A DNA stretch of 6,799 nucleotides from a virus (Duplodnaviria > Heunggongvirae > Uroviricota > Caudoviricetes). Shown one piece after another: positions 1 to 6,799 of this stretch (its first letter is position 1; the number at the start of each line of letters is the position of its first letter). The notes beneath the pieces were generated by a model that was not told the DNA's origin, did no database searches, and worked only from the letters and a program-made list of their open reading frames with translations. The stretch is from IMG/VR virus record IMGVR_UViG_2547132252_000010, positions 1 through 6,799 of that record; one strand, given 5' to 3'. Position numbers and translations under genes: made by a program.

Positions 1-34
1 CCCGGGTTTCCTGGAGAGTGTTTTATCTGTGAAC

Positions 35-924
35 TCAGGCTGCCAGATCATCGTTTCCGATGGAAGCATAATAAGCTTTTTCTGCTTCTGCCGGAGGAGT
101 ATGGCCCAGCCTTCCCAGCAATCGTCGATTGTTATACCAGTCCACCCACGTTAGTGTGGCCAGTTCCACTTCTGCACGGTTTTTCCAGCTCTTACGGTGT
201 ATTACCTCCGCTTTGTAAAGACCATTGATGCTCTCAGCCATCGCGTTGTCATACGAGTCGCCTGTACTCCCTGTTGATGCCAGTAATCCGGCTTCTTTTA
301 GTCGCTCCGTATAGGCCAGTGACACATACTGAGAGCCTTTATCGCTGTGATGGATGGTGCCAGACGGACGACGGGCCCACAACGCCTGCTCCAGCGCATC
401 CAGCACGAATGTCGTTTCCATAGACGATGAGACCCGCCACCCCACGATGTATCCGGCAAACACATCAATGATAAACGCCACATAGACGAAGCCCTGCCAT
501 GTGCTGACGTAAGTAAAATCAGCCACCCACAGCTGGTCAGGTCGTTCTGCCACGAACTGACGGTTTACGCGGTCGCCTGCGGCAACGGCTTTCCGGCTGA
601 TGGTCGTACGGACCTTTTTACCCCGGAGAACACCGGCAAGTCCCATAACCGCCATGAGACGTGCCACTGTACATCTGGCCACCTGATTCCTTCCCGTAAC
701 AACTGACGCCAGACTTTACGCACACCGTACACCTGATGATTTTCATCGTATACGCGCTGTATCTCTCTCTTCAGCCAGTCGTCGTGCTGCGCACGGGCAC
801 TGCGTTTATCCGGATGATGTCGCTGTTGCTGACAATGGTAATACGTTGACGGGGCAATATGCAGTTCGCTGCATACCGGTCCGACCCCGTACTGCTCACG
901 CAGCTTATCCAGCAGTGGCATCAT
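35..924 (-). pseudogene. IS3-family transposase OrfB (DDE integrase core), frame-disrupted: N-terminal part 565..924 and C-terminal DDE part 35..682 are in different frames
   Basis: IS3-family OrfB is normally one ORF of about 290-300 aa. Here the N-terminal segment ([16 protein letters not shown]...RQLLREGIR) and the DDE catalytic segment (VARCTVARLMAV...WVADFTY...HHSDKGSQY...ESINGLYKAEV...) sit in different frames and overlap across 565-682. The switch maps to about 682-683, where the minus strand reads atc agg tgg cc; one extra G (atc agg gtg gcc) would give the continuous REGIRVARCTV reading. Confidence 0.65.
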
Positions 925-1247
925 TTTTTCCAGAGGCGGTCGAACTCCGCCTTCGCAAAATAAGCGGAAGCCTGGCGAAGGATATCGTTACTGCGGCGCA
1001 GTTCACGATTTTCACGTTCCAGCTCTTTCAGACGCTGACGTTCAGCGCTGGTGAGCCCACCATCACCGCCCCCGGTATCCCGCTCATGCTGGCGAACCCA
1101 GACACGCAGAGTCTCCGGCGTACAGCCAATCTTTGGGGCAATGGAACAAATTGCCGCCCACTGTGAGTCATATTCATCCTGACTTTCCAGAACCATACGA
1201 ATCGCCCGCTGACGGACTTCGGGGGAAAAACGAGTATTTTTAGTCAT
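921..1247 (-). CDS. IS3-family transposase OrfA (HTH DNA-binding subunit), 108 aa
   Basis: [33 protein letters not shown]...[36 protein letters not shown] with an HTH followed by a leucine-zipper-like segment. Its stop overlaps the start of the orfB frame at a T6 run (plus-strand 924-929, A6 on the coding strand), the usual IS3-family -1 frameshift window. Confidence 0.9.
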
Positions 1248-1339
1248 CCTGTTTACCTCTTTCTCAGGGAGTTTAGTCTCCAGGATTTCCGGGGCGGTTC
1301 ACACCAAGTCTGGCCGCGAATTTCTTAGCATCACCAACC

Positions 1340-1467
1340 CTTAATGATTTAATAAACTCTTTTAATGTCATACCTTCCTCGGTTTAGTGTTTTTTGCGAG
1401 TTTAGTGTTTAATAAACCATTAAGTCAAGTATTTGCTTGTTTAGTGATTACTAAAGATAATTACCAC
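1340..1467 (+). promoter_or_regulatory. Candidate promoter-operator region of the TA operon: five direct repeats of TTTA(G/A)TG(A/T) with about 20-bp spacing, plus a sigma70-like -35/-10 pair placing the transcript start at or next to the ATG (leaderless)
   Basis: Repeat copies start near 1340, 1361, 1383, 1401 and 1440; longer forms are TTAATGATTTAATAAACT (1341-1358) and TTTAGTGTTTAATAAACC (1401-1418). TTGCTT at 1433-1438, a 17-bp spacer and GATAAT at 1456-1461 fit a promoter, and there is no Shine-Dalgarno before the ATG at 1468. Promoter and operator roles are inferred. Confidence 0.4.
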
Positions 1468-1838
1468 ATGCAAAAAAAGAAATTCGCCGTTTACGTCTCA
1501 AGGAGTGGTTTAAAGATAAAACTCTGCCACCCAAAGAGAAGAGCTACCTATCTCAACTAATGAGTGGGAGAGCCTCGTTTGGAGAAAAGGCTGCCAGAAG
1601 AATAGAGCAAACATACGGGATGCCGGAAGGGTATCTGGATGCGGAATACGCAGAACAACCGGGGGGTTCTCCACCACATGCAGGGTTAACGTCTAATCAA
1701 CTGGAATTATTGCAGATTTTTTCAGCCTTCCCTGAGGATGAGCAACGCCAGATAATCAGCGAGTTAAAGCAGAAAAAAGAATCAATGGAAGATCTCATAG
1801 CGAGATGGATTGCGGCGCAAAAATGCCGCCGCGCCTGA
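1468..1838 (+). CDS. paaR2: HTH transcriptional regulator of the TA operon (PaaR-like), reading frame offset at an A7 tract; the longest clean ORF is 1560..1838 (92 aa), but the HTH-encoding codons extend upstream to 1461 with no in-frame start
   Basis: Frame 0 from 1461 encodes LPHAKKEIRRLRLKEWFKDKTLPPKEKSYLSQLMSGRASFGEKAARRIEQTYGMPEGYLD..., a Cro/CI-type HTH, but has no ATG, GTG or TTG before M at 1560. The only upstream ATG (1468, atgcaaaaaaag) is in the +1 frame and stops after 30 codons at 1558-1560. One extra A in the A7 run 1472-1478 would give a continuous protein MQKKEIRRLRLKEWF... of about 123 aa. The symbol is by synteny with the recognised antitoxin and toxin genes. Confidence 0.55.
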
Positions 1839-1858
1839 GTTATAAAACCGGAGGAAAC

Positions 1859-2050
1859 ATGAATAGAGCCCTTTCACCAATGGTTTCTGAATTTGAAACC
1901 ATTGAACAAGAAAACAGTTACAACGAATGGCTGCGTGCGAAAGTAGCAACGAGCCTTGCAGATCCGCGCCCAGCAATTCCCCATGACGAAGTTGAGCGCA
2001 GAATGGCAGAACGCTTTGCTAAGATGCGCAAGGAACGGAGCAAGCAGTAA
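1859..2050 (+). CDS. paaA2: Small antitoxin of a ParE-type three-component TA system (PaaA2-like), 63 aa
   Basis: ATG at 1859 preceded by GGAGGA (1850-1855). The product MNRALSPMVSEFETIEQENSYNEWLRAKVATSLADPRPAIPHDEVERRMAERFAKMRKERSKQ is small, charged and helical, and matches my recollection of PaaA2. Its stop (2048-2050) lies 1 nt before the toxin ATG. Confidence 0.75.
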   Translation: MNRALSPMVSEFETIEQENSYNEWLRAKVATSLADPRPAIPHDEVERRMAERFAKMRKERSKQ

Positions 2051-2051
2051 A

Positions 2052-2330
2052 ATGTTACCCGTGTTATGGCTTGAAAGCGCAGATACCGACCTAGATGATA
2101 TAACTAGTTATATTGCTCGTTTCGACATAGATGCGGCTGAACGCTTATGGCAGCGATTAAGGGGTTGTGTGCTGCCGTTATCCGAACATCCGTATTTATA
2201 CCCACCAAGCGACAGAGTACCTGGCTTGCGTGAGATTGTAGCCCACCCTAACTATATAATTCTATACCGCGTAACAACATCAAGCGTTGAAGTAGTAAAC
2301 GTGATCCACGCAAGACGCCAGTTTCCCTAA
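2052..2330 (+). CDS. parE2: ParE/RelE-superfamily toxin (ParE2-like), 92 aa
   Basis: MLPVLWLESADTDLDDITSYIARFDIDAAERLWQRLRGCVLPLSEHPYLYPPSDRVPGLREIVAHPNYIILYRVTTSSVEVVNVIHARRQFP has the ParE-family pattern (D-x-x-I-x-x-YIA, RE-[IL]-V, YIILYRV). The start at 2052 is tightly coupled to the antitoxin stop; the in-frame ATG at 1956 would overlap paaA2 by 95 nt and is rejected. Confidence 0.85.
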   Translation: MLPVLWLESADTDLDDITSYIARFDIDAAERLWQRLRGCVLPLSEHPYLYPPSDRVPGLREIVAHPNYIILYRVTTSSVEVVNVIHARRQFP

Positions 2331-2350
2331 CTTTCACTACCAATAGAAAC

Positions 2351-2393
2351 ATAACAACCGCAACGACTTTATCAAAAGCGTTGTGTTTGTTAT
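2351..2393 (+). terminator. Candidate intrinsic terminator after the TA operon: 15-bp A/U-rich stem (one mismatch, one G-U) with a 13-nt loop and U-rich 3' arm
   Basis: ataacaaccgcaacg (2351-2365) pairs with cgttgtgtttgttat (2379-2393), starting 21 nt after the parE2 stop. The stem is atypically long and AT-rich, so the call is weak. Confidence 0.3.
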
Positions 2394-2400
2394 GTCCCGC

Positions 2401-2441
2401 GGTTTAGTTTTTACTTGGCTTAAGTTTAATGTTTATTAAAC
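2401..2441. repeat. Paralogous second copy of the operator-like block found upstream of the regulator
   Basis: GGTTTAGTTTTTACTTGGCTTAAGTTTAATGTTTATTAAAC (2401-2441) aligns with GGTTTAGTGTTTTTTGCGAGTTTAGTGTTTAATAAAC (1381-1417), sharing the GGTTTAGT head and the TTTA(A/G)TGTTTA(A/T)TAAAC core. Confidence 0.45.
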
Positions 2442-2680
2442 TAAAAATACCAACCACCCCGCCCCACAGAACGCAGGGAAATACTTCGAGTTACCCGGCA
2501 GTGGTCAGGGGTTAAGTAGCCAGCCCGAGGCGTATGAACATGACGGCAGGGTTCAACTTTAATAACTATGCAGCAGTTTTTTGTTCCGCTACCCCGGCGT
2601 TAAGGGGAAACAGAGGGTTTCTCAGTGGGCGAAGTCAAACATCAGAATGGAAGGCATCCCGGGATCGGCAAAGAAGCAGC

Positions 2681-2711
2681 AATGGCGCTTTATATTGACA
2701 TCAGCGCCATT
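2681..2711 (-). terminator. Possible terminator hairpin downstream of the minus-strand zinc-ribbon gene
   Basis: Perfect 9-bp inverted repeat AATGGCGCT (2681-2689) and AGCGCCATT (2703-2711) with a 13-nt loop, about 50 nt past the stop at 2760-2762. On the minus strand it is followed by GCUGCUUCUUUG, only moderately U-rich, and the loop is large. Confidence 0.2.
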
Positions 2712-2759
2712 GCAGGACAGGTAAGAGTTATCAGAGCGGTAACTAAGCGGTATGCGCCT

Positions 2760-2960
2760 TTACTTCAGAAAGTCTCTGGTGAGTGCACCGAAGATATTGT
2801 CAACGATTTCGTCATCGAACTGCGAGGACTCATCTTCAGTTACAAGGTGACCACAATTTTTGCAGATGGCTCCCGCGAAACTGTCAGAGCCCTGCGGCTT
2901 AAAGGATGTGTCAAAGACTTCGCCACCACATTCTGGGCAAGAAAACTTGATTGTATTCAT
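2760..2960 (-). CDS. Small C4 zinc-ribbon protein with acidic C-terminal tail, 66 aa
   Basis: The minus-strand ATG at 2960 is preceded by AGGA with an 8-nt spacer (gagAGGAaattggttATG). The product MNTIKFSCPECGGEVFDTSFKPQGSDSFAGAICKNCGHLVTEDESSQFDDEIVDNIFGALTRDFLK has C-P-E-C and C-K-N-C pairs about 21 residues apart, then an acidic tail. The overlapping plus-strand ORF 2625..2981 has no ribosome-binding site and is taken as antisense noise. Confidence 0.6.
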   Translation of the reverse strand: MNTIKFSCPECGGEVFDTSFKPQGSDSFAGAICKNCGHLVTEDESSQFDDEIVDNIFGALTRDFLK

Positions 2961-3052
2961 AACCAATTTCCTCTCGAGTAACAGACCCCTCAGAGGATAC
3001 CACCTCGCCTGACGTGGTTAAAAGCAGGCAACGCTAACCACAAGGAGCCGAC

Positions 3053-3271
3053 ATGCAGAAACGAGAACCCGTCATCATCGCGCCAGACTATACCGATGAT
3101 GAACTTTATGAGTGGATGCACCAGAAAATTAATGCAGCGCAGGATCTGAAATGGGCCAATGAAGCCAGGGCTAAGCAGGCTGAAAATCTGTCCGCTCTGG
3201 AGCAGGATATCACCAATCTGGAAAAAGCAGCGGCATTAAGCATTGCCAGAATGATTACATACCCGCGTTAA
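3053..3271 (+). CDS. Hypothetical small protein, 72 aa, predicted helical/coiled-coil
   Basis: ATG at 3053 is preceded by AAGGAG (3042-3047) with a 5-nt spacer. The product is MQKREPVIIAPDYTDDELYEWMHQKINAAQDLKWANEARAKQAENLSALEQDITNLEKAAALSIARMITYPR. It is divergent from the zinc-ribbon gene across a 92-bp intergenic region; no family recognised. Confidence 0.55.
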   Translation: MQKREPVIIAPDYTDDELYEWMHQKINAAQDLKWANEARAKQAENLSALEQDITNLEKAAALSIARMITYPR

Positions 3272-3627
3272 TAGCTAACCAACGAAGCTAAGGTTGGTAA
3301 TTAAGGAGTTCTCCACGGGTGAGGTGGAGTGCGTGCGCCGGACACGGGTGAGCATACGGCACTGACAGTTTACTGAAAGGATATTTCCCTGAAAAGTCAG
3401 ACCATAACGCGAAAGCGCACGGCGAGGTAGCTGGTTCATAGATAGCCTGTCGTTAAATTTTCGTCGACCGTGCGCTTCCGGTTGTGGCAATCCGCGAAAT
3501 GGCGCGGCGGTAAGTATGGAGGGGTTATTCCTTCCCCCGTTGAGGACACCGGGTTGTCAGGTTGACCATACGCTTAAGTGACAACCCCGCTGCAACGCCC
3601 TCTGTTATCAATTTTCTGGTGACGTTT

Positions 3628-3670
3628 GGCGGTATCAGTTTTACTCCGTGACTGCTCTGCCGCCCTTTTT
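3628..3670 (+). terminator. Candidate intrinsic terminator: GC-rich 7-bp basal stem (GGCGGUA/UGCCGCC) plus apical 4-bp stem, followed by CUUUUUAAA
   Basis: GGCGGTA (3628-3634) pairs with TGCCGCC (3658-3664), and CAGT (3636-3639) with ACTG (3651-3654); a T5 run follows at 3666-3670. It lies about 400 nt after the stop of the 72-aa gene and just before the 19-bp inverted repeat. Confidence 0.35.
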
Positions 3671-3674
3671 AAAG

Positions 3675-3822
3675 TGAATTTTGTGATGCGGTGAATGCGG
3701 CTGAGCGCACGCGGAACAGTTAAAACCAAAAACAGTGTTATGGGGGGATTCTCTGTATCCGGCGTTAATTGTTAACTGGTTAACGTCACCTGGAGGCACC
3801 AGGCACCGCATCACAAAATTCA
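3675..3822. repeat. 148-bp segment bounded by perfect 19-bp inverted repeats (TGAATTTTGTGATGCGGTG at 3675-3693; reverse complement at 3804-3822)
   Basis: Direct reading: the arms are exact reverse complements and the match stops at both boundaries. The 110-bp interior holds three GTTAA(C) repeats (3766-3784, including GTTAACTGGTTAAC at 3771-3784) and a tandem GGCACCAGGCACC (3795-3807). The right arm ends 17 nt before the ATG at 3840 and 5 nt before its GAGGA ribosome-binding site. Confidence 0.7.
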
Positions 3823-3839
3823 TTGTTGAGGACGCGATA

Positions 3840-4028
3840 ATGGAAACGTTATTACCAAACGTTAATACGTCTGAAGGTTGTTTTGAAATTGGTGTCACTA
3901 TCAGTAACCCTGTATTTACTGAAGATGCCATTAACAAGAGAAAACACGAACGGGAGCTATTAAATAAAATATGCATTCTTTCAATGCTGGCCCGTTTACG
4001 TCCGATACAAAAAGGATGCTGGCAATGA
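3840..4028 (+). CDS. Hypothetical small protein, 62 aa
   Basis: ATG at 3840 is preceded by GAGGA (3828-3832) with a 7-nt spacer. The product is METLLPNVNTSEGCFEIGVTISNPVFTEDAINKRKHERELLNKICILSMLARLRPIQKGCWQ. Its TGA stop (4026-4028) overlaps the next ATG (4025-4027) as ATGA, implying translational coupling. The longer track ORF from 3735 has no ribosome-binding site and would run through the inverted-repeat arm. Confidence 0.45.
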   Translation: METLLPNVNTSEGCFEIGVTISNPVFTEDAINKRKHERELLNKICILSMLARLRPIQKGCWQ

Positions 4029-4216
4029 ATACAGCATTTGCACTTGTTCTGACAGTTTTTCTTGTTTCCGGAGAGCCAGTTGATATTGCAGTCAGTGTTC
4101 ACAGGACAATGCAGGAGTGTGTGACTGCAGCAACCGAACAGAAAATTCCCGGTAACTGTTACCCGGTCGATAAAGTTATTCACCAGGATAATAACGAAAT
4201 CCCGGCAGGTCTTTAA
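4025..4216 (+). CDS. Hypothetical small membrane-associated protein, 63 aa, hydrophobic N-terminal segment
   Basis: ATG at 4025 is preceded by AAGGA with an 8-nt spacer (aaaAAGGAtgctggcaATG). The product MNTAFALVLTVFLVSGEPVDIAVSVHRTMQECVTAATEQKIPGNCYPVDKVIHQDNNEIPAGL has an uncharged hydrophobic stretch at residues 3-16 (one transmembrane helix or atypical signal) and two Cys. The alternative start at 3971 lacks a properly spaced Shine-Dalgarno. Confidence 0.45.
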   Translation: MNTAFALVLTVFLVSGEPVDIAVSVHRTMQECVTAATEQKIPGNCYPVDKVIHQDNNEIPAGL

Positions 4217-4308
4217 AACAGTTCCGTAATAAACATCCGATTTCATTCTTATATGCCAGCAATGGCAGGGATTTGTTCACCCTTAAATCTGTAATGAGGT
4301 AAAACAAA

Positions 4309-6780
4309 ATGAGTAAAGTCTTTATTTGCGCCGCCATTCCGGACGAACAGGCAATAAAGGAAGAAGGTGCCGTCGCTGTAGCCACTGCCATTGAAGCCGG
4401 TGATGAACGTCGCGCCCGCGCAAAATTTCACTGGCAATTCCTGGAACATTATCCGGCTGCTCAGGACTGCGCTTATAAATTTCTTGTTTGCGAGGATAAA
4501 CCCGGTATACCCCGCCCTGCCCTCGATTCCTGGGATGCTGAATATATGCAGGAAAACCGCTGGGATGAGGCGTCTGCTTCCTTTGTCCCGGTCGAGACTG
4601 AATCCGATCCGATGAACGTCACTTTTGACAACCTGGCCCCTGAAGTACAGAACGCTGTCATGGTTAAGTTCGACACATGTGAAAACATCACTGTTGATAT
4701 GGTGATTAGCGCACAGGAATTGTTGCAGGAAGACATGGCAACATTCGACGGCCATATCGTTGAAGCGTTGATGAAAATGCCAGAAGTTAACGCCATGTAT
4801 CCGGAGCTTAAGCTGCATGCCATCGGGTGGGTTAAGCATAAATGTAAGCCTGGTGCCAAATGGCCCGAAATTCAGGCAGAGATGCGCATCTGGAAAAAAC
4901 GTCGCGAAGGTGAACGCAAGGAAGCCGGAAAATACACGTCTGTTGTTGATCTCGCCCGCGCCAGAGCCAATCAACAGCACACTGAAAATTCAACAGGAAA
5001 AATCAACCCGGTCATTGCTGCCATTCATCGCGAATACAAGCAGACATGGAAAACACTGGATGACGAACTGGCCTACGCTCTCTGGCCTGGTGATGTGGAT
5101 GCCGGAAACATTGACGGCAGCATCCATCGCTGGGCAAAAAATGAAGTTATCGACAACGGCCGCGAAGACTGGAAGCGTATCTCGGCATCAATGCGCAAAC
5201 AGCCTGATGCCCTTCGCTACGACCGCCAGACTATTTTTGGCCTTGTCCGTGAACGTCCGATCGACATTCACAAAGACCCTGTGGCACTGAACAAATACAT
5301 TACTGAATACCTGACTACAAAGGGCGTGTTTGAAGATGAAGGAACAAATCAGAGCGCAACTGACACTCTCTCGTCGCCAGTACCAGAAACTGATGCAGTG
5401 GAAACGGCAATTCCGGACAACGAAAAAACCGAATGCAAAGTGGAAGTCGAACCATCTGTAGAGCGTGAGGGGCCGTTCTACTTCCTCTTCACCGACAAGG
5501 ATGGCGAAAAATACGGTCGCGCAAACAAACTTTCTGGTCTGGATAAGGCGCTGGCTGCCGGGGCTACTGAAATCACAAAAGAAGAATATTTTGCCCGAAA
5601 AAATGGCACATACACAGGCTTACCGCAAAATGCAAATACCGCACAAAATTCTGAACAACCAGAACCGGTAAAAGTTACCGCTGACGAAGTAAAGAAAATT
5701 ATGCAGGCAGCCAATATCAGCCAGCCTGACGCCAATCAGTTGCTCGCCGCATCACGTGGTGAATTTGTTGCAGGGATTAGCGACCCGAATGATCCGAAAT
5801 GGGTGAAGGGGATTGAAACCCGCGATTCTGTGAACCAGAACCAGCAAGAAACGGAACAGAACGACCAGAAAGCGGAACAAAACAGCCCAAATACGCAACA
5901 AAACGAGCCAGAAACGAAACAACCTGAGCCAGTAGCGCAACAGGAACCGGAAAAAGTCTGCACCGCCTGCGGTCAGACCGGCGGCGGCAACTGCCCTGAT
6001 TGTGGCGCGGTGATGGGCGACGCAACATACCAGGAAACATTCGATGAAGAGTATCAGGTTGAAGTTCAGGAAGATGATCCGGAGGAAATGGAAGGCGCTG
6101 AACATCCACACAAGGAGAACACTGACGGCAATCAGCATCACGATAGCGATAATGAAACTGGCGAGACGGCAGATCACTCAATTAAGGTGAACGGTCATCA
6201 AGAAATCACATCCACCAGCAGGACGTGTGACCATCTAATGATCGACCTTGAAACCATGGGAAAAAATCCTGATGCCCCGATCATCTCAATAGGTGCAATA
6301 TTTTTCGATCCGCAAACCGGAGATATGGGACCGGAATTTAGTAAGACTATCGATCTGGAAACTGCTGGCGGGGTCATTGATCGGGACACCATTAAATGGT
6401 GGCTTAAGCAATCACGCGAAGCGCAATCTGCCATTATGACCGATGAAATCCCGTTAGATGATGCACTATTACAATTGCGGGAATTTATCGACGAAAACTC
6501 CGGTGAATTTTTTGTTCAGGTCTGGGGAAATGGAGCCAACTTCGACAACACGATTTTGCGCCGTTCATACGAACGGCAGGGGATCCCCTGCCCGTGGCGT
6601 TACTACAACGATCGCGATGTACGCACAATCGTTGAGCTGGGGAAAGCCATAGACTTCGATGCCAGAACGGCTATTCCATTCGAAGGTGAGCGCCATAATG
6701 CACTTGATGACGCCCGTTACCAGGCAAAATACGTTTCAGTTATCTGGCAAAAACTGATCCCGAATCAGGCTGATTTTTAA
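4309..6780 (+). CDS. Prophage recombination-type exonuclease, 823 aa: long N-terminal and linker region (RecE-like by recollection) with an internal C4 zinc ribbon, fused to a C-terminal DEDDh (DnaQ/ExoX-like) 3'-5' exonuclease domain
   Basis: ATG at 4309 is preceded by GAGGT with an 8-nt spacer. The C-terminal domain (from about M644, nt 6238) carries the three DEDDh motifs: Exo I MIDLETMG (D-x-E), Exo II WGNGANFD, Exo III HNALDDARYQAKY (H-x4-D). Upstream are a C-x2-C-x21-C-x2-C zinc ribbon (codons 551-565, nt 5959-6003) and an acidic Q/N/E/P-rich low-complexity linker. The middle region (LLAASRGEFVAGISDPNDPKWVKGI...CTACGQTGGGNCPDCGAVMGDATYQETFDEE) matches my memory of central RecE; this is unverified. 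Confidence 0.9.
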   Translation: MSKVFICAAIPDEQAIKEEGAVAVATAIEAGDERRARAKFHWQFLEHYPAAQDCAYKFLVCEDKPGIPRPALDSWDAEYMQENRWDEASASFVPVETESDPMNVTFDNLAPEVQNAVMVKFDTCENITVDMVISAQELLQEDMATFDGHIVEALMKMPEVNAMYPELKLHAIGWVKHKCKPGAKWPEIQAEMRIWKKRREGERKEAGKYTSVVDLARARANQQHTENSTGKINPVIAAIHREYKQTWKTLDDELAYALWPGDVDAGNIDGSIHRWAKNEVIDNGREDWKRISASMRKQPDALRYDRQTIFGLVRERPIDIHKDPVALNKYITEYLTTKGVFEDEGTNQSATDTLSSPVPETDAVETAIPDNEKTECKVEVEPSVEREGPFYFLFTDKDGEKYGRANKLSGLDKALAAGATEITKEEYFARKNGTYTGLPQNANTAQNSEQPEPVKVTADEVKKIMQAANISQPDANQLLAASRGEFVAGISDPNDPKWVKGIETRDSVNQNQQETEQNDQKAEQNSPNTQQNEPETKQPEPVAQQEPEKVCTACGQTGGGNCPDCGAVMGDATYQETFDEEYQVEVQEDDPEEMEGAEHPHKENTDGNQHHDSDNETGETADHSIKVNGHQEITSTSRTCDHLMIDLETMGKNPDAPIISIGAIFFDPQTGDMGPEFSKTIDLETAGGVIDRDTIKWWLKQSREAQSAIMTDEIPLDDALLQLREFIDENSGEFFVQVWGNGANFDNTILRRSYERQGIPCPWRYYNDRDVRTIVELGKAIDFDARTAIPFEGERHNALDDARYQAKYVSVIWQKLIPNQADF

Positions 6781-6799
6781 TGTTCAACCCCGGTCGTTG
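6780..6799 (+). CDS. 5' end of the next gene (MFNPGR...), start overlapping the exonuclease stop in TAATG; truncated by the window end
   Basis: ATG at 6780-6782 overlaps TAA at 6778-6780, a typical coupled arrangement. Only 6 codons are visible, so this is based on position alone. Confidence 0.25.

What the first reader, a model, noticed from the sequence alone, without database searches (positions are those of the whole stretch)
1461..1562. Regulator gene has its ATG and its HTH-encoding frame offset by one base at an A7 homopolymer
The HTH-encoding codons (EIRRLRLKEWFKDKTLPPKEKSYLSQLMSGRASFGEK...) run from 1461 with no usable start codon. The only ATG with promoter context (1468) is in the +1 frame and terminates after 30 codons. 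The two frames are reconciled by a single extra A in the run at 1472-1478. This could be a real inactivating frameshift (loss of autorepression), a homopolymer sequencing error, or a slippage-prone tract giving on/off or low-level expression of the repressor.
Basis: seen in the sequence. Interest (0 to 1): 0.6.

Follow-up and report, generated by a model that had tools for sequence, protein, structure and literature searches.

The report
Likely sequencing-error frameshift in paaR2 repressor
The one-base frame break at the start of this prophage repressor gene (paaR2, a well-studied lambda-CI-like regulator of E. coli O157:H7) is really in the deposited sequence, but it is most probably a homopolymer miscount in an old draft assembly rather than biology, so the finding is ordinary.

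Summary
The ATG is at 1468, an A7 run lies at 1472-1478, and the HTH frame runs from 1479 to the stop at 1836-1838. The ATG frame stops after 30 codons. The gene is paaR2, the leaderless CI analogue of cryptic prophage CP-933P/Sp12, upstream of paaA2-parE2. Published N-terminal sequencing gives MQKKE, which needs A8. Of 593 complete E. coli genomes with the locus, 579 match the A8 version exactly and 3 match A7.

The window is identical to a gap-flanked contig of the draft assembly GCA_000215165.1. Against its nearest relative with the same IS629 insertion, it differs over 5.4 kb by one substitution and three 1-base deletions. All three deletions are in homopolymers. Two of them hit the only two runs of 7 or more bases in that stretch (T7 to T6, A8 to A7). 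The same T6+A7 pair recurs in an unrelated O26-type contig that otherwise matches a complete genome carrying T7+A8.

Best reading: homopolymer undercall (about 0.75). Rival: a real slippage mutation in a decaying prophage (about 0.2). Programmed recoding or phase variation is not supported: distant homologues lack the tract and no stimulator is present, although A_AAA_AAG would allow a trace of -1 rescue.

The parts
1..1302 (-). IS629/IS1203 (IS3 family), lacking the outermost ~8 nt because the contig ends at a scaffold gap. orfA is 921-1247. orfB is split into 565-924 and 35-682 by a private CCC->CC deletion near 680-682. The frameshift pseudoknot lies at 850-966.
   Evidence: annotated IS3-like element IS1203 in relatives; ALIL pseudoknot, 121.5 bits; N run next to the window start.
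1303..1371 (-). First ~23 codons of ydaS, the Cro analogue of CP-933P, cut off by the IS629 insertion.
   Evidence: the intact 100-aa 'transcriptional regulator' in relatives; truncated pseudogene in Rafaela_II and E32511; PMC8630535.
1372..1467 (.). Divergent promoter/operator region. It is 96 bp here and 97 bp in EDL933. GTTTAGTG operator repeats lie at 1382, 1400 and 1439. A PR-like promoter is on the minus strand (TTGACT 1428-1423, TAAACT 1404-1399). PRM-like elements are TTGCTT 1433-1438, a 17-nt spacer, GATAAT 1456-1461, and +1 at A1468.
   Evidence: Operators, promoters and 5'RACE start sites are from PMC8630535. The PRM hexamer coordinates are my own reading of the sequence.
1390..1395 (+). 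T6 run. It is T7 in all relatives that carry the same IS insertion. This is the second private homopolymer contraction.
   Evidence: (T6 exact in 7 of 593 complete genomes).
1468..1470 (+). paaR2 start codon. It is also the transcription start, because the mRNA is leaderless.
   Evidence: PMC8630535: 5'RACE, N-terminal sequence MQKKE, intact mass 15,081 Da. The promoter-to-ATG spacing is conserved in the Klebsiella and Burkholderia phage homologues.
1472..1478 (+). A7 run; A8 in the functional gene. With A1473-G1479 it forms the heptamer A_AAA_AAG in the ATG frame.
1468..1560 (+). Out-of-frame 30-codon ORF created by A7. Its TAA (1558-1560) overlaps the ATG at 1560-1562 (TAATG).
1479..1838 (+). 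Residues 5-123 of PaaR2 plus the stop codon, identical to the reference protein.
1859..2050 (+). paaA2 antitoxin with its own Shine-Dalgarno sequence (GGAGGA 1850-1855).
   Evidence: PF21217, E = 1e-19.
2052..2330 (+). parE2 toxin.
   Evidence: PF05016, E = 1.9e-16.

Best explanation
The gene is paaR2, the lambda-CI-like, leaderless repressor of the cryptic prophage CP-933P/Sp12 of E. coli O157:H7. It heads the paaR2-paaA2-parE2 operon. In the organism it most probably reads ATG CAA AAA AAA GAA... (A8) and encodes the normal 123-aa protein. The A7 in this window is most probably a homopolymer undercall in a scaffolded draft assembly (GCA_000215165.1). That would make the frame offset an artefact of the record, not a property of the strain. 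Shown here: the gene's identity, A8 as the functional state, the window's source, and the pattern of differences. Inferred: that the difference is an error, because no reads could be inspected.
For: (1) Identity and true start. PDB 7nkv/8c3k/8c3l begin MQKKEIRRL. 5'RACE places +1 on the A of the ATG, N-terminal sequencing gave MQKKE, and the intact mass fits (PMC8630535). (2) A8 is the norm. 579 of 593 complete genomes match the A8 82-mer exactly, 3 match A7 and none matches A9. All 5 metagenome contigs carry A8. The intact 123-aa protein is seen on at least 1000 contigs, against 7 and 6 for the two A7-derived gene calls. (3) Source. The window is 100% identical to L065, scaffold GL896788.1 of draft GCA_000215165.1, and it starts at an N gap. 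(4) Error signature. Against E32511, which has the same IS629 insertion, 5396 nt show 1 substitution and 3 single-base deletions, all in homopolymers. The reference stretch has only two runs of 7 or more bases, T7 and A8, and exactly those two are shortened; all eight 6-mers are intact. The third deletion (CCC->CC in IS629 orfB) matches only 2 of 5468 records that hold this IS. (5) All other members of the sublineage carry T7+A8: the two complete genomes read here (L004, L005; six further complete genomes align to the junction query with the same two extra bases) and 5 draft or Logan contigs. (6) The same T6+A7 pair occurs in an unrelated background (L079, run SRR094960, no IS). That contig has 0 substitutions against the complete O26 genome RM10386, which carries T7+A8. 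A7-only contigs come from runs with neighbouring accession numbers: SRR094976 and SRR096911, and SRR495239 and SRR497698. (7) A7 is more frequent in older isolate drafts held in IMG/VR (4 of 46) than in complete genomes (3 of 593).
Against: No reads or platform metadata could be inspected, so the error is inferred, not seen. An A8 run is a real replication-slippage hot spot. Three complete ETEC genomes carry A7, and Logan contigs show A7 and A9. In this lineage ydaS (the Cro analogue) is already destroyed by IS629. Selection on paaR2 may therefore be relaxed, and a real second hit is plausible. A CCC->CC undercall is not typical of a length-dependent homopolymer error.
Confidence: 0.75

Rival explanations
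1. The A7 is real. Replication slippage shortened A8 to A7 in this strain and turned paaR2 into a pseudogene. The immunity region has already lost ydaS (and probably ydaT expression) to IS629. PRM would then lose autorepression. paaA2-parE2 would still be translated from their own ribosome-binding sites. At most, an N-terminally truncated 92-aa fragment could arise by re-initiation at the TAATG overlap at 1558-1562.
For: A8 is the longest homopolymer in the region. A7 and A9 alleles exist in other assemblies in several backgrounds. ydaS is disrupted in this lineage, and PaaR2's main task is to repress ydaS-ydaT (PMC8630535). paaA2 has its own GGAGGA Shine-Dalgarno sequence.
Against: The mutation would have to coincide with two more private homopolymer deletions within 800 bp, in a clone that shows only one substitution in 5.4 kb. 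Every other assembly with the same IS insertion has T7+A8. The same T6+A7 pair appears in an unrelated strain's read set. That is not expected from independent mutation: A7 is about 0.5% and T6 about 1% of complete genomes.
Confidence: 0.2
2. The A tract is a functional switch or recoding site. One version is phase variation of the repressor by tract-length change. The other is low-level synthesis of normal PaaR2 from the A7 allele by -1 ribosomal frameshifting on A_AAA_AAG, or by RNA polymerase slippage on the leaderless transcript.
For: In the ATG frame, 1473-1479 is A_AAA_AAG, one of the most shift-prone heptamers in E. coli (PMC4066793). A -1 shift there yields exactly MQKKEIRR..., the wild-type protein (reading). 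The tract lies at +5 to +11 of the transcript.
Against: The offset arrangement is not conserved. 579 of 593 complete genomes are in frame with A8. Distant homologues from Klebsiella and Burkholderia phages start MTTQEIRR and MDIATTRR with no A run. There is no significant downstream structure (z = -0.57). A leaderless mRNA leaves no room for an upstream SD-like stimulator. Heptamers without stimulators reach only 2-10 times a 0.055% background. Tract-length variants are rare among closely related complete genomes, unlike contingency loci.
Confidence: 0.04

Closest known systems
PaaR2 of cryptic prophage CP-933P (EDL933) / Sp12 (Sakai), regulator of paaR2-paaA2-parE2 (Jurenas et al. 2021, PMC8630535; PDB 7nkv, 8c3k, 8c3l)
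   Same: Residues 5-123 are identical. The promoter/operator region with GTTTAGTG repeats is the same. The downstream paaA2 and parE2 genes and the divergent ydaS gene are the same.
   Different: The window has A7 instead of A8, so the ATG is out of frame. It has T6 instead of T7 in the intergenic region (96 bp against 97 bp). ydaS is interrupted by IS629.
Lambda cI expressed from PRM (leaderless repressor mRNA)
   Same: The transcript starts at the A of the ATG. The gene is divergent from a cro-like gene. Operators overlap both promoters (PMC8630535).
   Different: There is no detectable sequence homology to lambda CI and no Pfam hit. A toxin-antitoxin pair lies downstream in the same operon. 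The paper reports four inverted repeats rather than three operators.
dnaX / IS3-family -1 programmed frameshift sites (A_AAA_AAG)
   Same: The same slippery heptamer is present in the zero frame, and a -1 shift restores the long ORF.
   Different: There is no stimulatory hairpin or pseudoknot, no upstream SD-like element is possible, and the arrangement is not conserved. A true example sits in the same window: IS629 orfA/orfB with the ALIL pseudoknot at 850-966.
Homopolymer-length errors in draft assemblies
   Same: The changes are single-base deletions confined to homopolymers. The longest runs are the ones affected. The same pair recurs in an unrelated template.
   Different: The sequencing platform of the source assembly could not be checked. 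One of the three deletions is in a run of only three C.

Membership tests
PaaR2 (CI analogue of CP-933P/Sp12) | Protein sequence matches experimentally characterised PaaR2 | tested here: met
   Window 1479-1835 is identical to residues 5-123 of the reference. PDB 7nkv matches residues 1-66 (E = 5e-41).
PaaR2 (CI analogue of CP-933P/Sp12) | Heads an operon with paaA2 and parE2, divergent from ydaS-ydaT, in a lambdoid immunity region | tested here: met
   PF21217 and PF05016 hits lie immediately downstream. The ydaS remnant is at 1303-1371. The dicF/dicB/exonuclease context is present.
PaaR2 (CI analogue of CP-933P/Sp12) | Leaderless ATG placed 6-7 nt after the -10 element of PRM | tested here: met
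   GATAAT 1456-1461 is followed by ATG 1468. The same layout occurs in the Klebsiella and Burkholderia phage homologues. The transcription start itself comes from the literature only.
PaaR2 (CI analogue of CP-933P/Sp12) | Uninterrupted ORF from that ATG through the HTH domain | tested here: not met
   A7 puts the ATG in another frame, with a stop after 30 codons. As deposited it is a pseudogene; if the A7 is an error, as argued here, it is an intact gene.
Programmed -1 ribosomal frameshift site | X_XXY_YYZ slippery heptamer in the zero frame | tested here: met
   A_AAA_AAG lies at 1473-1479 in the frame of ATG 1468.
Programmed -1 ribosomal frameshift site | Stimulatory element (downstream structure or upstream SD-like sequence) | tested here: not met
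   The fold of 1468-1560 has z = -0.57, and 57 of 200 shuffles fold as well. Only 5 nt of transcript precede the heptamer.
Programmed -1 ribosomal frameshift site | Offset-frame arrangement conserved among homologues | tested here: not met
   579 of 593 genomes are in frame with A8. Distant homologues lack the tract.
Phase-variable (contingency) locus with a homopolymer tract | Frequent tract-length variants among closely related isolates | tested here: not met
   3 of 593 genomes have exact A7 and 0 have exact A9. All relatives with the same IS insertion have A8.
Phase-variable (contingency) locus with a homopolymer tract | Length heterogeneity within a culture or read set | not testable with these tools
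   No reads are available.
Homopolymer sequencing/assembly error | Private differences from nearest relatives are single-base indels in homopolymers, affecting the longest runs preferentially | tested here: met
   There are 3 deletions against 1 substitution in 5396 nt. The only two runs of 7 or more bases are both shortened.
Homopolymer sequencing/assembly error | Same miscount recurs in unrelated templates | tested here: met
   L079 (SRR094960) carries T6+A7 on an O26-type allele that otherwise matches a complete genome with T7+A8.
Homopolymer sequencing/assembly error | Reads or an independent platform show the longer run | not testable with these tools
   Neither reads nor platform metadata are accessible. 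A literature search for the accession found nothing.

The most novel reading that the evidence does not exclude
The A7 allele is real. The strain still makes a trickle of authentic PaaR2 (MQKKEIRR...) by -1 ribosomal frameshifting on A_AAA_AAG, or by RNA polymerase slippage within the first 12 nt of a leaderless mRNA. That would reset the CI/Cro-like bistable switch to a low-repressor state.
Probability: 0.03. Interest if true: 0.5.

Novelty: not a real feature. Interest (0 to 1): 0.08.

Why it matters
The matter is mainly one of data hygiene. A well-characterised repressor appears as a pseudogene, or as a 118-aa protein with an ATT start, or as a 92-aa fragment, in a minority of public assemblies because of one base in an A8 run. 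Anyone counting intact against degraded paaR2-paaA2-parE2 systems, or inferring loss of prophage immunity from drafts, would be misled. If the A7 were real, the strain would have lost both arms (the CI-like and the Cro-like regulator) of the CP-933P switch while keeping the toxin-antitoxin pair. That would be a modest, expected step in prophage decay.

Tried and rejected
(1) A start at the Met of 1560. Rejected: residues 7-31 contain 17 positions that are invariant in distant homologues, Met32 is Ile in the Klebsiella phage homologue, and N-terminal sequencing gave MQKKE.

(2) A non-canonical start in the HTH frame. PGAP uses ATT 1482 for A7 alleles. I treat this as an annotation rescue with no supporting evidence.

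(3) A downstream frameshift stimulator. None was found.

(4) Finding the window in complete RefSeq genomes, IMG/VR or metagenome contigs. There was no exact source there. A look-up of the T6+A7-specific 57-aa ORF found nothing. The source was finally found through the 32-aa ydaS remnant.

(5) The species-representative genome scan gave no match.

(6) Literature searches for the assembly accession and for the CVM strain names gave no information on sequencing platform.

(7) Pfam gives no family for PaaR2 itself.

Full report
**What is in the sequence.** The ATG is at 1468-1470, followed by C1471 and seven A at 1472-1478. The ATG frame reads MQKKKFAVYVSRSGLKIKLCHPKRRATYLN and stops at TAA 1558-1560. 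The frame that starts with GAA at 1479 reads EIRRLRLKEWFKDKTLPPKEKSYLSQLMSGRASFGEK... through to TGA 1836-1838. That frame has no ATG, GTG or TTG before the ATG at 1560. One more A would give ATG CAA AAA AAA GAA ATT, i.e. MQKKEIRRL.

**What the gene is.** The window is the immunity region of an E. coli O157:H7-type lambdoid cryptic prophage.
- Downstream lie a PaaA2 antitoxin (1859-2050, PF21217) and a ParE toxin (2052-2330, PF05016).
- Further on lie ydfC, DicF RNA (3614-3665), dicB and an 823-aa exonuclease.
- Upstream and divergent lies the start of ydaS, cut after about 23 codons by an IS629/IS1203 element that fills 1-1302.
- The regulator is PaaR2. With A8 restored, its residues 1-66 match PDB 7nkv/8c3k ('Phage repressor protein CI', E = 5e-41; the remaining matched positions of that 74-residue chain are tag), and 8c3l matches residues 1-57.

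Jurenas et al. 2021 (PMC8630535) showed that PaaR2 is the functional analogue of lambda CI in prophage CP-933P. They showed that YdaS and YdaT are the Cro and CII analogues. They mapped the paaR2 transcript start to the A of the ATG by 5'RACE, so the mRNA is leaderless. The purified protein begins MQKKE and has the expected intact mass. The paaR2-ydaS intergenic region is 97 bp and carries the operators. In the window I find the GTTTAGTG repeats at 1382, 1400 and 1439, and again at 2402 and 2424. I also find a PR-like promoter on the minus strand. By eye I read TTGCTT 1433-1438, a 17-nt spacer, GATAAT 1456-1461, then six bases and the ATG. The window's intergenic region is 96 bp, one short.

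**What homologues carry.**
- Alignment with three complete genomes shows A8 in each and an intact 123-aa ORF.
- I used queries of 81-83 nt, so that one indel moves a hit out of the 99% identity band. Of 593 complete E. coli genomes with the locus, 579 match the A8 version exactly. Three match A7 exactly; these are the pig ETEC isolates ETEC1732, 1734 and 1749. None matches A9.
- All five metagenome contigs have A8.
- IMG/VR contigs show 42 A8 and 4 A7.
- The intact protein is recorded on at least 1000 contigs. The two gene calls that A7 provokes, with this window's exact protein sequence, are recorded on 7 contigs (118 aa, ATT start) and 6 contigs (92 aa).
- Distant homologues keep the promoter-to-ATG spacing. 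They read straight through from the ATG and have no A run: MTTQEIRRRRLKEWF in Klebsiella phage 5 LV-2017 (45% identity) and MDIATTRRQRLKAWF in Burkholderia phage vB_E177 (65% over the N-terminal domain).

The tract is therefore an incidental pair of AAA lysine codons after CAA, not a conserved signal.

**Is the A7 in the organism or only in the record?** No complete genome is identical to the window. The ydaS remnant led to the source. The window is 100% identical to scaffold GL896788.1 of the draft assembly GCA_000215165.1, and it begins where a run of N begins. It is thus one contig between scaffold gaps.

The nearest relative is O157:H7 strain E32511, which has the same IS629 insertion. Against it, 5396 aligned bases show one substitution and three single-base deletions in the window:
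- CCC to CC inside IS629 orfB, which breaks the transposase;
- T7 to T6 at 1390-1395;
- A8 to A7.

In the reference stretch the only homopolymers of seven or more bases are that T7 and that A8. All eight 6-mers are unchanged. The CC variant of IS629 matches only 2 of 5468 records that contain this IS. T6 occurs in 7 of 593 complete genomes, none of them in the O157 group. Both complete genomes with the same IS insertion that I read base by base (L004, L005) carry T7 and A8. Six more align to the junction query with two or three extra bases, which is consistent with that. So do the five further draft or Logan contigs with the insertion.

The most telling result comes from contig L079, from run SRR094960. 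It has no IS insertion and an O26-type allele. It is identical over 1275 nt to the complete O26 genome RM10386 except for the same two contractions, T7 to T6 and A8 to A7. Other contigs that have only A7 come from runs with neighbouring accession numbers (SRR094976 and SRR096911; SRR495239 and SRR497698, the last contig seen in 11 samples). They sit on several different backgrounds.

Two unrelated strains acquiring the same pair of rare homopolymer changes by mutation is very unlikely. A length-dependent undercall in particular sequencing batches explains it simply. I could not see reads or platform metadata, so this remains an inference.

**Rival: a real mutation.** An A8 run is a true slippage hot spot. 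Three complete genomes carry A7, and A9 also occurs in two Logan contigs. In this lineage the Cro analogue is already destroyed, which may relax selection on the repressor. If the A7 is real, the consequences would be as follows.
- Autorepression of PRM would be lost.
- paaA2 and parE2 would still be expressed from their own ribosome-binding sites.
- At best there would be re-initiation at the TAATG overlap (1558-1562). The resulting 92-aa fragment would lack half of the solved N-terminal domain, including 17 residues that are invariant in distant homologues.

I give this reading about 0.2. Its main weakness is that it must coincide with two further private homopolymer deletions.

**Rival: functional slippage.** In the ATG frame, 1473-1479 is A_AAA_AAG, the dnaX/IS3-type heptamer. 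A -1 shift there would yield exactly the wild-type MQKKEIRR... This is a neat coincidence, and it means a real A7 allele would be slightly leaky. However:
- heptamers without stimulators give only 2-10 times a 0.055% background (PMC4066793);
- the downstream RNA folds no better than shuffles (z = -0.57);
- a leaderless mRNA has no room for an upstream SD-like element;
- the offset arrangement is not conserved.

Selection against slippery A or T runs becomes evident at about nine bases in many bacteria (PMC1088944). Tract-length variants are rare among close relatives, unlike in contingency loci. I give this reading about 0.04.

**Verdict.** The gene and its biology are already known. The frame offset is most probably not a real feature of the organism. 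Interest is low.

Noticed in passing
window 1-1302 and 1303-1371: IS629/IS1203 is inserted after about codon 23 of ydaS, the Cro analogue of CP-933P. The same insertion is present in a subset of O157:H7 complete genomes (Rafaela_II, E32511, 06-3462, Vac_07.1, CEC13004, 93_161312, 08-3914). It should lock or disable the PaaR2/YdaS bistable switch in that sublineage.
   Followed up: partly
window ~680-682 (minus-strand IS629 orfB): A private CCC->CC deletion splits the IS629 transposase into 119-aa and 215-aa pieces. Only 2 of 5468 records that contain this IS share the variant.
   Followed up: partly
window 1390-1395: This T run lies in the PR933P/operator region, near the expected ydaS transcript start. 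It is T6 here, T7 in most genomes and T8 in some. It is a natural length polymorphism inside an operator repeat whose effect on the switch is unknown.
   Followed up: partly
L079 (Logan SRR094960), L075-L078: Contigs from a few runs with neighbouring accession numbers carry A7, and one carries T6+A7. They otherwise match complete genomes that have A8/T7. This suggests a batch or platform effect that creates false paaR2 pseudogenes in public data.
   Followed up: partly
L006 3047-3403; L065 2534-2890: The NCBI annotation rescues A7 alleles by calling a 118-aa protein from an ATT codon (window 1482). This gives RefSeq proteins such as WP_134790801.1 and WP_282835446.1, which are probably artefactual.
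   Followed up: no
L071 301-657 (Klebsiella phage 5 LV-2017); L072 301-~570 (Burkholderia phage vB_E177): Clear PaaR2 homologues with the same promoter-to-ATG spacing are not annotated as genes in either phage record, presumably because leaderless genes lack a ribosome-binding site. The Burkholderia protein continues into a different C-terminal part.
   Followed up: partly
window 3675-3693 and 3804-3822: A perfect 19-nt inverted repeat (TGAATTTTGTGATGCGGTG / CACCGCATCACAAAATTCA) with 110 nt between the arms lies between DicF (3614-3665) and dicB. Its function is unknown to me.
   Followed up: no
window 1316-1326 and 1477-1487: A perfect 11-nt inverted repeat (GCGAATTTCTT / AAGAAATTCGC) sits roughly symmetrically in the first codons of ydaS and paaR2, on either side of the divergent promoters. 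By my rough estimate about 0.2 such pairs are expected by chance in this stretch, so it may mean nothing.
   Followed up: no
window 5364-6780: The 3' part of the 823-aa exonuclease gene differs from strain Rafaela_II by 67 substitutions. The encoded protein is identical to the one encoded at L010, L012 and many other places, and the DNA differs from L010 by only three substitutions across 1301-6799. This is a recombination mosaic. In E32511 a second IS629 interrupts this gene.
   Followed up: partly
window 1558-1562: The stop codon of the 30-codon out-of-frame ORF overlaps the in-frame ATG of Met32 (TAATG). If the A7 were real, this would permit coupled re-initiation.
   Followed up: no
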